This document shows, one piece after another, positions 45,510 to 62,136 of a stretch of DNA of 64,000 bases. The stretch is from positions 2,121,199 through 2,185,198 of the forward strand of contig NC_057752.1 in assembly GCF_004010195.1 (NCBI RefSeq). The letters are read 5' to 3'. Position 1 is the stretch's first letter. The number at the start of each line of letters is the position of its first letter. This stretch comes from Chiloscyllium plagiosum (Eukaryota). A program made the position numbers and the translations under genes. Below the pieces are notes generated by a model. The model saw only the letters and a list, made by a program, of their open reading frames with translations, was not told the DNA's origin and did no database searches.

Positions 45510-46031
45510 CTTTTCAGAGAACACCTCTGGGACACCCGGACCAACCAACCCAACCACCCTGTAGCCCAACACTTTAACTCCCCCTCCCACTCCACTAAGG
45601 ACATGCAGGTCCTTGGACTCCTCCATCGCCAGACCATGGCAACATGACGGTTGGAGGAAGAGCCCCTCATCTTCTGCCTGGGAACCCTCCAACCACAAGG
45701 GATAAACTCAGATTTCTCCAGTTTCCTCATTTTCCCTCCCCCCACCTTGTCTCAGTCAAATCCCTCGAACTCAGCACCGCCTTCCTAACCTGCAATCTTC
45801 TTCCTGACCTCTCCAACCCCACCCCACTCCGGCCTATCACCCTCACCTTGACCTCCCTCCACCTATCGCAATTCCAACGCCCCTCCCCCAAGTCCCTCCT
45901 CCCTACCTTTTATCTTAGCCTGCTGGACACACTTTCCTCATTCCTGAAGAAGGGCTTATGCCCGAAACGTCGATTCTCCTGTTCCTTGGATGCTGCCTGA
46001 CCTGCTGCGTTTTTTCAGCAACACATTTTCA
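45510..46031 (+). mobile_element. Penelope-like element 3' part (GIY-YIG C-terminus, UTR, terminus with hammerhead)
   Basis: EHLWDTRTNQPNHPVAQHFNSPSH..LEEEPLIFCLGTLQPQGINSDF; imperfect direct repeat GCAATAAC(T)ATAAGC at 45495-45509 and 46032-46045. Confidence 0.85.
45944..45971 (+). ncRNA. Minimal type I hammerhead ribozyme motif, intact core, in a Penelope terminus
   Basis: CUGAAGA-A-GGGC-UUAU-GCCC-GAA-ACGU-C: core boxes, 4-bp stem II, palindromic ACGU as stem III, GUC triplet. Confidence 0.7.
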
Positions 46032-48370: not shown

Positions 48371-49108
48371 TCCATGCAATTCTATATCTAAGTTACTAGT
48401 TTTTAGCTACAAGATTATTCATTGTGAATGAATTTAACATTGCTAAAACGACAAAACAATCAAAGCATTTTTTCTTGTCCTCATCAAGACTGGAATGCAA
48501 GAAACCAAACTTAGAAAGGGAATACCAGTTTATGTGAGACAAGAACAGACCATGGTTGGTATGGCGATGCAGCCAGAACTGTTAACTGTCAATCCTTGCT
48601 GATTGAACGTGGACCAGGTGGGATGCGTTTGGTTGGTTGGGCATTACTGGAAGAATTGGCAGTCTCCATTTTTAAAAATATGGTACAGTATATGGACAAT
48701 TTCCTTTTGTCCTATGTGTGAATAAATGGCTTTATCAGCTTTAAAATAATGAACACTATATGGATGTCAGTATTTGCACCATATAATTTATAGATATACA
48801 CAATTTGGAAAACTTGGGTTTGGTCAACTTGAAGTCTAGCAGCTCTAGAGTCGACACCTCCACTAAGAGAGAGTTTACAAAGTGGGAGTGATAATTCCTC
48901 CTGCTCACATATGCCTAATTGACTGGTTATAGAGGGTGCTAGAAGCTTGTGACAGTGTTGCCCTCTTGCTTGACGGTGAATGTGTGGGTCACATATTGTT
49001 CTGTCAGGTAGAAGATAATATTTTGAAAAAAGAAGGAATAGAGGGAAAAAGGAGATTGTCAACCATGTGCTTGTTTTCAGCAAGCTCTCAATTTGTGTAT
49101 TTTAAAAG

Positions 49109-49325
49109 TTAAAAGTCACACAACACCAGATAATAGTCCAACAGGTTTAATTGGAAGCACGAGCTTTTGGAGCGCTGCTGCTTCATCAGGTGGTTCCACA
49201 ACCACCTGATGAAGGAGCAGCGCTCCAAAAGTTAGTGCTTCCAATTAAACCTGTTGGACTATTATCTGGTGTTGTGTGACTTTTGATTTTGTTCACCCGA
49301 GTCCAACACCAGCATCTCCAAATCA
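49109..49325. mobile_element. Penelope-like insertion forming an 85-bp hairpin with hammerhead-like cores
   Basis: Arms 49111-49195 and 49200-49284 (3 mismatches), loop CCAC; direct repeat TGTATTTTAAAAG at 49096-49108 and 49326-49338. Confidence 0.8.
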
Positions 49326-49794
49326 TGTATTTTAAAAGAAAGACTGATTGGACATTCTTGTCCTAGGCAATTTGATATTATGACATTCTTGCAGTTTTGA
49401 ACCATGTTTAGTCTTTGGCACAGTTTGACTTTGTCTTGCAGCAGAATGTAATCTTCAAAACAAAGCAGCAACAGGTTGCAGAAAGTACTAACAAAGCTAA
49501 GGATACTGATTTTAGTTTGAATTCTGTACAACAAGTACCTCCTAAGCATTACACAGCAGAGCCCATTTCAACTGGCAACAGATAAACAAGAGTGATCTGT
49601 AAGGGTCATCTTCCTTAAACATGGCCAGTAAGAATACATTGCTAACAGTGATCACTTGTGTAATTTTATATATTCTGAGTGCACCTCAGACGTATGTGGA
49701 AAGCAGCCTACCTAAAATGCTTTTTACATACTGACACTCAGCAATTTCTGGATACTTTTGTGCTACACATCTATCGAATGTCATCTGAATAGTG

Positions 49795-50977: not shown

Positions 50978-51041
50978 CAAATTTCTACTGGGTGGCAGGA
51001 ATGGGTGATCCATTGCTTTGTGGAAATAGCACAGATGCTGG
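50978..51041 (+). CDS. scn8a: Nav alpha subunit exon 7 (DI extracellular loop), 64 nt
   Basis: TTGCAG acceptor; (T)NFYWVAGMGDPLLCGNSTDA(G); donor GG|GTAAGT; phases match exons 6 and 8. Confidence 0.92.
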
Positions 51042-51409
51042 GTAAGTTTTATCTTCTAATTGTTGAATTCCACCCTGTTTGTTAATTATGGTATTTGTAA
51101 AAGATTCTTCCAATTGAATTTGTCTGTCTGATGTGGGACTTAGTCATAAAGACCAGAAGCTTCCACAATTGTCTGTGCTGATCTCAGTTGGGCAACTGTT
51201 GAGGATCTGCAATTGTTAAACTACAGAGAGAATAAATCAACCAAGACCCCTTTCTCCATTTGTTACTCAGTGGTTTCCATTGCAGAGAATGCGGAACCCT
51301 GTTATCATGCTCTCCCAGTCTCCTATTTAAAGAGTAGCCTCTTGGATCAAGTAATGTTGATTGCTTAAGTCTGTGATGCTGTGACTGCAGGGAGGGAGGA
51401 AAGGAAACA

Positions 51410-51780: not shown

Positions 51781-52912
51781 AAGGCAACACAGTGAGTCTG
51801 GTATCTCTGACTGAGGGACAAGGCAGCAGCACAGTGAGCCTGGTATCTCTGGCTGAGGGACAGGGCAGCAGCACAGTGAGCCTGGTATCTCTGACTGAGG
51901 GACAGGGCAGCAGCACAGTGAGCCTGGCACCTCTGGCTGAGGGACAGGGCAGCAGCACAGTGAGCCTGGTATCTCTGACTGAGGGACAGGGCAGTAGCAC
52001 AGTGAGCCTGGTATCTCTGACTAAGGGACAGGGCAGTACTACAGTGAGCCTGGTATCTCTGACTGAGGGACAGGGCAGCAGCACAGTGAGCCTGGTATCT
52101 CTGACTGAGGGACAGGGCAGCAGCACAGTGAGCCTGGTATCTCTGACTGAGGGACAGACCAGCAGCACAGTGAGCCTGGTATCTCTGGCTGAGGGACAGG
52201 ACAGCAGCACAGTGAGCCTGGTATCTCTGGCTGAGGGACAGTGCAGCAGCACAGTGAGCCTGGTATCTCTGACTGAGGGACTGGGCAGCAGCACAGTGAG
52301 CCTGGTATCTCTGGCTGAGGGACAGGGCAGCAGCACAGTGAGCCTGGTATCTCTGACTGAGGGTCAAGGCAACAGCACAGTGAGCCTGGTATCTCTGACT
52401 GAGGGACAGGGCAGCAGGACAGTGAGCCTGGTATCTCTGACTGAGGGACAAGGCAGCAGCACAGTGAGCCTGGTATCTCTGACTGAGGGACAGGGCAGCA
52501 CTACAGTGAACCTGGTATCTCTGACTAAGGGACAAGGCAGCAGCACAGTGAGGCTGGTATCTCTGGCTGAGGGACAGGGCAGCAGCACAGTGAGCCTGGT
52601 ATCTCTGACTGAGGGACAGGGCAGCAGCACAGTGAGCCCTGGTATCTCTGGCTGAGGGACAGGGCAGCTGCACAGTGAGCCCTGTATCTCTGACTGAGGG
52701 ACAAGGCAGCAGCACAGTGAGCCTGGTATCTCTGACTGAGGGACATGGCAGCAGCACAGTGAGTCTGGTATCTCTGGCTCAGGGACAATGCAGCAGCACA
52801 GTGAGCCTGGTATCTCTGACTGATGGACAAGGCAGCAGCACAGTGAGCCTGGTATCTCTGACTGAGGGACAAGGTAGCAGCGCAGGGAGCCTGGTATCTC
52901 TGACTGAGGAAC
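51781..52912. repeat. 42-bp minisatellite, about 27 copies
   Basis: Unit CACAGTGAGCCTGGTATCTCTGACTGAGGGACAGGGCAGCAG; few substitutions; a 1-nt insertion near 52638. Confidence 0.95.
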
Positions 52913-53589
52913 AAGTCATGGCAGGGATGTTGTGTTTATCACGGTTGTCTCGGAGTAAGGAATCACTGGGAGAGTGCATGAACAGCCTGCAGATCCAGCC
53001 CGGTCCAGGCCACGAGCTGTGGGTCAGTGTCCTCACTGCAGCACTACAATGAGAGTTCCCAGGGCATCCCAAGGGGGGCATTGAAGGGCTGAAGAGTCCT
53101 GTAAGTGGATCGATGATGGGGGACCAGAAGTGTTCTTGGAGGCTGGCACATGTTGGATGTCACTGACTGTGGGCGTGAGGTGTATGTGTGCACGCACATG
53201 CGTTCCCCATAGTGCATGCCCTGAGATGTTGATGCCTCGTGTTTAACATGGAGATTGTTCAGAGCGGGCGGTGAGCTGAAGCCTCCAGGTGCTCCCTCTG
53301 GTTTCCTTGTTGTCTTTTCCCGATATCGAGTTTGTTTGGAGTCGAGATTGGTCTCGCTGGACGTGTCGCACAATTTTGCCACAATCTCACCCATAGCCCA
53401 CTGTTGCTCTTAAGATTTTGCCCTTAGAGACTGTTGTGACCCGTTGTTACATTTTTGTGCTGATGTTGTTGCTCTGCATTTATTTCACTCAGCCCTCCTG
53501 AGCCACTGATGGGCTCCCTTAATAGCATCACATGTACTTTCACATGTACATGTACTCATGCTTTCTGTGCATTCTACTGGTAGACTTTG

Positions 53590-61563: not shown

Positions 61564-62136
61564 AGCTGAAAATGTGTTGCTGGAAAAGCGCAGCAGGTCA
61601 GGCAGCATCCAAGGAGCAGGAGAATCGACGTTTCGGGCATGAGCCCTTCTTCAGGAATGAGGAAAGTGTCTTCCATCTGGGTTGTACGGTATTGGAACTG
61701 GTCCTCTTGGAAGCAGATGCGGCGGAAACGAAGGAATTGGGAATATGGGATGGCATTTTTACAGGAGGCAGGGTGGGAGGAGATGTAGTCTACGTAGCGG
61801 TCGGTTTATAGTAAATGTCCGTGTTGATTCGGTCGCCCGAGATAGAAATGGAGAGGTCTAGGAAGGGGAGGGAGGAGTCTGAGATGGTCCAGGTAAATTT
61901 GAGGTCGGGGTGGAAGGTGTTGGTAAAGTGGATGAACTGTTCAACCTCCTCGTGGGAGCACGAGGCAGCGCCGATACAGTCATCGATGTAGTGGAAGAAA
62001 AGATGGGGGGTGGTGCCAGTGTAGCTGTGGAAGATGGACTGTTCCACATATCCTATGAAGAAGCAGGCATAGCTGGGGCCCATGCGGGTGCCCATGGCTA
62101 CTCTGATCTCCAGCATCTGTAGTCCTCACTTCCTCC
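61564..62136 (-). mobile_element. Rearranged Penelope-like element (RT fragment and terminus) inserted in a CR1 3' end spanning 61474-62560
   Basis: MGTRMGPSYAC..YIDD..LPFLDL..YYKPT; direct repeat CTGATAATCCTCAA at 61550-61563 and 62137-62150. Confidence 0.88.
61627..61654 (-). ncRNA. Minimal type I hammerhead ribozyme motif, intact core, in a Penelope terminus
   Basis: Minus strand reads CUGAAGA-A-GGGC-UCAU-GCCC-GAA-ACGU-C. Confidence 0.7.

What the first reader, a model, noticed from the sequence alone, without database searches (positions are those of the whole stretch)
49096..49338. 85-bp near-perfect hairpin with back-to-back hammerhead cores sharing the same inactivating change
Seen: 82 of 85 pairs match around a 4-nt loop, followed by a ~40-nt unpaired tail, all inside a 13-bp direct repeat. 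Each arm, read outward from the loop, approximates CAC-CUGAUGA-A-GGAGC(AGC)GCUCC-AAA-AGCU-H-GUG, a second hammerhead family with a CAC/GUG stem I and palindromic AGCU (each arm deviates at one position). Both arms have AAAA where GAAA is needed. Inference: the change was copied at insertion or homogenised between arms. The transcribed hairpin, 1.7 kb upstream of exon 7, is a likely ADAR or Dicer substrate.
Basis: partly seen in the sequence, partly recalled or inferred. Interest (0 to 1): 0.7.

Follow-up and report, generated by a model that had tools for sequence, protein, structure and literature searches.

The report
Penelope retrotransposon stump, mirror-image arms
This hairpin is a stump of a very abundant Penelope-like jumping gene in that family's usual back-to-back layout; the ribozyme-breaking letter in both arms is a common change in the family, likely from ordinary DNA decay, although three rarer shared letters suggest the two arms were likely copied from one another or from one worn template.

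Summary
The hairpin is real: 82/85 pairs (86/91 extended), 37-nt tail, 13-bp duplication. It is the 3' end of a Neptune/Nematis-type Penelope-like element (RT plus GIY-YIG upstream in longer copies). Its layout of inverted arm, one-sided tail and duplication is published for this class, and is the commonest form here (21 of 35 insertions in 737 kb; duplication mode 12-13 bp). The scan noted it before on other DNA (67 findings).

The family reads GAAA (28,898 vs 7,031 AAAA matches). The change sits at a CpG. Among 2,880 tight hairpins, 696 carry it in one arm and 94 in both (68 expected by independence), so sharing AAAA is weak evidence of copying.

This locus is still an outlier: three further rare changes are shared, and that 29-mer occurs only in these two arms. 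Arm-to-arm conversion and a decayed template are about equally likely.

Only one core reads in sense on the sodium-channel pre-mRNA, and the duplex is predicted to bury it. Editing and small RNAs are untested. Both ends of the insertion are present in two related organisms. Ordinary; low interest.

The parts
49096..49108 (.). Left copy of the 13-bp target-site duplication; its last 4 nt also fit the end of the left arm
   Evidence: family duplications are 12-13 bp in 39 of 84 pairs
49105..49195 (-). Tail-less inverted arm: element positions 1-91 of the terminal repeat, 3' end pointing outward
49158..49192 (-). Minimal hammerhead motif of the left arm, readable only on the minus strand; GAAA>AAAA at 49168, stem II mismatch at 49180
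   Evidence: motif layout from PMC4209133
49196..49199 (+). 4-nt loop = element positions -3..0 of the tailed arm; 1-nt overlap with the left arm at 49195
49200..49290 (+). Tailed arm, element positions 1-91; carries the rare changes at 49263, 49265 and 49280 that the left arm mirrors at 49132, 49130 and 49115
49203..49237 (+). Minimal hammerhead motif of the right arm (sense on the host pre-mRNA); GAAA>AAAA at 49227 and C>T in the AGCU palindrome at 49232
   Evidence: stem pair probabilities 0.000 in context
49291..49327 (+). 37-nt one-sided tail (element positions 92-128), AC-rich
   Evidence: 3' ends cluster at 88-93 and 126-128
49326..49338 (.). Right copy of the 13-bp duplication; its first 2 nt also fit the tail end
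50978..51042 (+).

Best explanation
This is a doubly 5'-truncated insertion of the terminal repeat of an abundant Penelope-like retroelement in its family's usual head-to-head layout, likely made when both cut ends of the target DNA primed copying of the element's RNA at two start points 37 nt apart, and likely without function today. Shown: family identity, layout, duplication size, and presence of both insertion ends in two related organisms. Inferred from PMC11167929 (both strands cleaved and extended; two RT start sites bounding the tail): a staggered cut about 13 bp wide, two short cDNAs, joined at a 1-nt overlap just upstream of the hammerhead. GAAA>AAAA is inferred CpG decay, which needs no special event. 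The three rarer shared changes need one extra event at this locus: later conversion of a roughly 50-bp tract between the arms, or copying of both arms from one already decayed template. These are about even and unresolved. In the host pre-mRNA the arms are predicted to pair into a long duplex that prevents the hammerhead from folding; that duplex would be a bystander ADAR substrate like other inverted repeats (untested).
For: Family size: 44,880 exact matches to a 22-nt majority motif; 35 insertions in 736,969 position-picked bases, 21 of them inverted pairs, each with one longer and one shorter arm. PLE link: an ORF with RT motifs, a CX4-5CxxC linker and GIY-YIG/CCHH ends about 500 nt before this terminus in L188, with DKG upstream; RVT_1 above cut-off in L163; Atlas first hit 0.97 with HTH_animal, RVT_1 and GIY-YIG shares (a lead). 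Duplication 9-16 bp in 72 of 84 pairs. GAAA vs AAAA 28,898 to 7,031. Tight hairpins: 2,090 GG, 696 mixed, 94 AA. In the fetched pairs 4 both, 30 one arm, 48 neither, Fisher p=1. Published layout: PMC3846280, PMC8557442.
Against: Double-AAAA hairpins exceed independence (94 vs 68; OR 1.6, p 3e-4). Age differences between loci could produce this, but I did not show it: AAAA frequency was similar in the two subfamilies compared (15/86 vs 14/73). Pfam gave no GIY-YIG hit, so the endonuclease call rests on motif reading and the Atlas lead. The two-end priming step is borrowed from a Poseidon element in vitro; PMC3846280 argues for self-priming instead. Covariation support for the hammerhead fold was slight (1 of 9 pairs with a two-sided change among 12 copies).
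Confidence: 0.85

Rival explanations
1. Sub-rival A for the shared letters: after insertion, a tract of about 50 bp (positions 36-85) was converted from one arm to the other, and the AAAA arose twice by CpG decay.
For: The three rare shared changes lie in one uninterrupted 50-bp identical tract, with the 5 private changes outside it. The 29-mer carrying them occurs only in these two arms. Of 31 matches to the two-change 22-mer, no other locus has it in both arms, and 0 of 15 partner arms carry both changes (3 carry one). The tail is as diverged (3/37) as the whole right arm (7/84).
Against: A run of 50 or more identical bases with 5 mismatches in 91 has P=0.10 by chance, and the tract was chosen after the fact. 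The shared AAAA lies outside the tract. In unselected pairs the small excess of shared rare changes is seen in both tight (4 vs 1.1 expected) and long-spaced pairs (2 vs 0.5), so no loop-length effect is shown.
Confidence: 0.45
2. Sub-rival B: both arms were copied from one decayed source copy that already had all four changes, including the dead GAAA.
For: One event explains all four shared changes. Private divergence (2/84 and 3/84) fits the subfamily's median of 4.2% (n=12) better than total divergence (7-8%). Arms at a locus usually share subfamily type (position 46: 57 of 59 unselected pairs). Hammerhead catalytic mutants did not affect insertion in vitro (PMC11167929). One other locus, L027, picked by likeness to this one, shares two of the rare letters in both arms.
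Against: No source or sibling copy was found: the 29-mer is unique and the best of 40 scored relatives is 93% identical. Arms of one insertion are not always from one template type: 12 of 49 pairs differ at a 2-nt subfamily insertion.
Confidence: 0.4
3. The extra arm identity is an assembly or polishing artefact: one arm's letters were copied onto the other in this assembly.
For: Tight palindromes inside a family of more than 40,000 near-identical copies are hard to assemble (PMC8557442 says so for such structures). No read or contig spanning an arm of this locus was seen in the four contig sets laid.
Against: The assembly keeps five private differences between the arms, on both sides of the identical tract. 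The median arm-to-arm mismatch in other pairs of this assembly is 9%, so it does not generally flatten arms.
Confidence: 0.1
4. The hairpin is a retained regulatory RNA structure in the sodium-channel intron (editing-dependent splicing or a small-RNA source), with the ribozyme disabled to protect the pre-mRNA.
For: A near-perfect 86-pair duplex on the sense strand. Both ends are present in two related organisms. Penelope repeats are heavily edited in lizard, and elephant shark brain shows hyper-editing (PMC5625713 passages).
Against: About 100,000 such pairs are extrapolated genome-wide and this one is not unusually perfect. The duplex is predicted to block the ribozyme without any mutation. 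The only Rfam hit (mir-875, 32 bits vs gathering 84) is below threshold.
Confidence: 0.05

Closest known systems
Inverted-pLTR-plus-tail insertion unit of EN+ Penelope-like elements (Arkhipova et al. 2013, PMC3846280; Craig et al. 2021, PMC8557442)
   Same: Adjacent inverted 5'-truncated copy, 30-40 bp tail on one end only, short target-site duplication (8-10 bp in the rotifer examples read), hammerhead in the terminal repeat.
   Different: Both arms here are cut down to about 90-130 nt, so no ORF remains. The duplication mode is 12-13 bp. The family is far more abundant than the rotifer families described.
Minimal type I hammerheads of metazoan PLEs (Cervera and De la Pena 2014, PMC4209133)
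   Same: CUGANGA core, extra base before stem II, G-C first pair of stem II, palindromic 15.2-16.2 (AGCU), short stem I. The paper also notes motifs 100-700 bp apart on opposite strands.
   Different: Stem II is 5 bp and stem I 3 bp in this subfamily. Both copies here have lost G12, and the sense copy is predicted to be buried in a duplex.
Poseidon element of Anolis carolinensis studied in vitro (Frangieh et al. 2024, PMC11167929)
   Same: Two end points about 37 nt apart bounding an AC-rich tail downstream of the hammerhead; AT-rich target.
   Different: The linked ORF here has the CX2-5CxxC linker of Neptune/Nematis, which Penelope/Poseidon lack. No biochemistry exists for this family in what I read.
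Non-LTR retrozymes (Li et al. 2026 preprint 10.64898/2026.07.22.740005)
   Same: Short, non-coding, hammerhead-bearing, related to PLE terminal repeats.
   Different: Retrozymes are head-to-tail tandem units with at least two complete hammerheads; this is head-to-head with broken cores and no tandem array.

Membership tests
EN+ Penelope-like element | Terminus physically linked to a single ORF with RT | tested here: met
   L188: 595-aa open frame ends about 500 nt before the terminus; RVT_1 E 2.4e-7, above cut-off, in L163. 10 of 12 loci fetched with the ORF query carry the terminus within 1.5 kb.
EN+ Penelope-like element | C-terminal GIY-YIG endonuclease with CCHH, two cysteines between GIY and YIG | tested here: met
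   Motif read directly in L185, L187, L188 translations against the description in PMC8557442; Atlas lead. Pfam gave no GIY-YIG hit and the single-sequence fold failed.
EN+ Penelope-like element | DKG motif upstream of the RT core | tested here: met
   PADKGG in L188 upstream of the long frame.
EN+ Penelope-like element | Inverted 5'-truncated copy, 30-40 bp one-sided tail, short duplication | tested here: met
EN+ Penelope-like element | RT groups with PLE/telomerase RTs in a phylogeny | not tested
   No reference PLE sequences were fetched and no tree was built.
Neptune or Nematis clade | CX2-5CxxC linker between RT and EN | tested here: met
   CHGGRCKTC / CHSRCCRTC in L185 and L187. Neptune versus Nematis not separated.
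Minimal type I hammerhead (family majority) | CUGANGA, GAAA, UH core with stems I and II | tested here: met
   All three core parts intact in 70 of 126 unselected arms; consensus fold recovers stems I and II, with slight covariation.
Minimal type I hammerhead (this locus) | Intact GAAA and a foldable core | tested here: not met
   AAAA in both arms; stem I and II pair probabilities 0.000 in context.
Minimal type I hammerhead (this locus) | Self-cleavage | not testable with these tools
   Needs an in vitro assay.
Non-LTR retrozyme | Head-to-tail tandem units with two or more complete hammerheads | tested here: not met
   definition from the preprint, part 1.
microRNA precursor / ADAR or Dicer substrate | Rfam family match, editing or small-RNA reads | tested here: inconclusive
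   mir-875 at 32 bits vs gathering 84; the RNA lay gave 1 partly fitting read and 0 reads, which is no test.

The most novel reading that the evidence does not exclude
The shared rare letters record arm-to-arm gene conversion inside a Penelope hairpin, and the arms of some insertions come from two different element RNAs (12 of 49 pairs differ at a subfamily indel; in four a linked loop II marker switches too). The roughly 100,000 hairpins in this genome would then be a natural experiment that separates two-ended, two-template priming from self-priming fold-back, and measures conversion in short palindromes.
Probability: 0.35. Interest if true: 0.45.

Novelty: new member of a known kind. Interest (0 to 1): 0.15.

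Why it matters
The locus itself matters little: it is one of an estimated 100,000 inverted stumps of a known class. Two by-products have some value. First, genome-wide counts show that 'same inactivating change in both arms' is mostly independent decay, a useful caution for reading such hairpins. Second, how PLE inverted repeats form is named as an open task in PMC8557442, and comparing the two arms across many loci tests one-template against two-template models without biochemistry.

Tried and rejected
Rfam: no hammerhead hit; mir-875 below gathering score, taken as chance. Pfam on the frameshifted L010 frame and on endonuclease pieces: blank. PDB sequence search with P0001: 0 hits at E<=1. 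Single-sequence fold of the endonuclease region: pLDDT 30, not used, no fold search. Placing the rare letters in relatives: orthologous contigs end at 49128/49129 and differences near contig ends are not listed. I tried to infer the letter at 49115 from where contigs break, but both versions of the 30-mer exist elsewhere (6 and 1 other loci), so this was inconclusive. No empty site was seen (15 joint rows shown, 263 not shown). A minor subfamily carrying the rare letters was rejected: 31 matches against 44,880, close to independent mutation, and partner arms lack them. RNA editing of the template as source of the shared changes was rejected because they are of four different kinds. A cis-dimer of the two cores was rejected because they lie on opposite strands. 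Literature searches for twin priming in Penelope, for conversion between retrotransposon arms and for 'inverted pLTR' listed no paper on arm homogenisation in PLEs by title or abstract start; I saw only those listings, and supplements were not read.

Full report
Observation. The fold energy is -160.1 kcal/mol, and none of 200 shuffles comes near. The 13-bp direct repeat is exact. Both arms read AAAA at the hammerhead GAAA position. Rfam gave only mir-875 at 32 bits against a gathering score of 84. The downstream exon at 50978-51042 matches sodium-channel alpha subunits, so the + strand is the transcribed one; the exon number was not tested.

The family. The right arm plus tail has 2,851 first-look candidates in the genome, 40 scored, the best others 89-93% identical. 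A 22-nt majority motif has 44,880 exact matches. In 76 stretches picked by position (736,969 called bases) I found 56 arms forming 21 inverted pairs and 14 singles. All 21 pairs have one longer arm (ending at 109-128) and one shorter (61-98), and 17 are tight hairpins. A rough extrapolation is 170,000 insertions and 100,000 pairs. Arm 3' ends cluster at 88-93 and 126-128, which defines a 37-nt tail. In 84 pairs with both ends alignable (this locus included), the best flanking duplication was 12-13 bp in 39 and 9-16 bp in 72. The finding's layout is thus the family norm.

Link to a Penelope-like ORF. Longer copies extend upstream into coding remnants. A search with one remnant scored 150 of 7,869 candidates, and 10 of the 12 fetched loci carry the terminus nearby. 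In L188 a 595-aa frame ends about 500 nt before the terminus. It shows RT motifs, a cysteine linker and a GIY-YIG-type motif with two inner cysteines and two histidines, with DKG in a frame upstream. RVT_1 passes its cut-off in L163 and falls below it in L188. Pfam GIY-YIG was not hit; the Atlas gave clusters with HTH_animal, RVT_1 and GIY-YIG at 0.97 (a lead). PMC8557442 (passages) assigns the CX2-5CxxC linker to Neptune and Nematis, and describes the adjacent inverted truncated copy and the 30-40 bp one-sided tail as typical. PMC3846280 (passages) shows the same unit with 8-10 bp duplications. PMC4209133 (first half of the text) describes the minimal hammerhead and notes pairs on opposite strands. 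No phylogeny was made.

Is the shared AAAA informative? The 16-mer with GAAA has 28,898 matches and with AAAA 7,031. Among arms not selected on the finding, position 28 is G in 131, A in 29 and T in 1 of 161. The G is part of a CpG, and its C partner is T in 30 of 161, as methyl-CpG decay predicts (established knowledge; inference for this genome). In 82 other fetched pairs with both positions readable, 4 have A in both arms, 30 in one and 48 in neither (Fisher p=1; some pairs were selected by likeness to the finding). Genome-wide, tight hairpins matching a two-part pattern number 2,090 GG, 696 mixed and 94 AA. Independence predicts 68, so there is a modest excess (OR 1.6, p 3e-4), which age differences or occasional co-derivation could give; I did not separate these. 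In 15 of the 94 AA loci, the arms share 1 other rare change against 56 private ones. So most double-AAAA hairpins look like coincidences.

Why this locus is still an outlier. Its arms also share A64T, C66T and T81C. The 29-mer holding all three occurs only in these two arms. The two-change 22-mer has 31 matches; 30 were fetched, and of 15 partner arms elsewhere none has both changes and 3 have one. L027, found by likeness, shares both. The ratio of arm-to-arm mismatch to summed distance from the majority is 0.38, lowest of 40 pairs (median 0.96), although absolute arm identity ranks only joint 17th of 67. In 56 unselected young-type pairs, rare shared changes number 6 against 208 private, with 1.7 expected from permuted partners (P 0.005); older-type pairs were left out of this count. 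One extra event is therefore likely. Conversion fits the 50-bp identical tract (post hoc P 0.10) and the lack of a sibling copy. A decayed template fits all four shared changes at once and the low private divergence. An assembly artefact is not excluded. Contigs of two related organisms run from each flank into the insertion (25 differences over about 730 bases and 33 over about 728), so it predates their split, but they stop before the informative letters.

Mechanism. PMC11167929 (first half of the text) reports that a Poseidon protein cleaves and extends both strands, starts reverse transcription at two internal sites bounding the tail, is predicted to be a dimer, and does not need hammerhead cleavage for insertion in vitro. 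Applied here by inference, both target ends primed short cDNAs, one from each start site, with 4-nt and 2-nt overlaps with the target, and the two were joined at a 1-nt overlap. PMC3846280 prefers self-priming. In my pairs, arms mostly share subfamily type, but 12 of 49 differ at a 2-nt insertion, four with a linked loop II switch, which hints at two templates in some insertions.

Function. Only the right core is in sense on the pre-mRNA. Its stem pairs have probability 0.000 in context and at most 0.15 in the arm alone, so the duplex is predicted to silence it with or without G12. Editing is plausible by precedent: PMC5625713 (passages) reports heavy editing of Penelope in lizard and of palindromic repeats in frog. 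It was not tested here.

Earlier scan notes. 67 findings in at least 14 genomes match the same architecture; none matched my words on shared mutations or conversion between arms. They call the host a shark; that fits my recall but I did not test it. Supplements of the cited papers were not read and may hold more on arm comparisons.

Verdict. Real observation, ordinary PLE insertion, headline inference only partly right. New member of a known kind; interest 0.15.

Noticed in passing
L004, L016, L183, L184 (inverted pairs): The two arms of one insertion differ at both the 2-nt stem I insertion and the loop II type, which are linked in single arms; overall 12 of 49 pairs differ at the insertion, 9 of them with it on the tail-less arm. 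This suggests two RNA templates in some insertions.
   Followed up: partly
L188:3620-9640: A roughly 6-kb head-to-head insertion of the same family with 2,458-bp arms at 91.9% identity, carrying RT and endonuclease remnants: the same layout at 25 times the size.
   Followed up: partly
window 45942-45973 (+) and near 61654 (-): Hammerhead-like motifs of a different repeat family (CUGAAGA core), the second next to an RT-like frame at 61790-62125.
   Followed up: no
L137 (G000:C19:5063080-5066101): Another tight hairpin whose arms share two rare changes plus AAAA; second most homogenised of 40 pairs.
   Followed up: no
window 51784-52913: A 42-bp tandem array of 27 copies, 92% matches, open in several frames on both strands, 0.7 kb after the sodium-channel exon; Pfam hits looked spurious.
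   Followed up: partly
L062, L069 and other older-type arms: An older subfamily has a CUU cleavage triplet and a longer possible stem I (ending GUGAUU), against CUA and a 3-bp stem I in younger copies.
   Followed up: no
listings: Junctions of tight hairpins cluster just upstream of or within the hammerhead core, with several recurring identical junctions.
   Followed up: no
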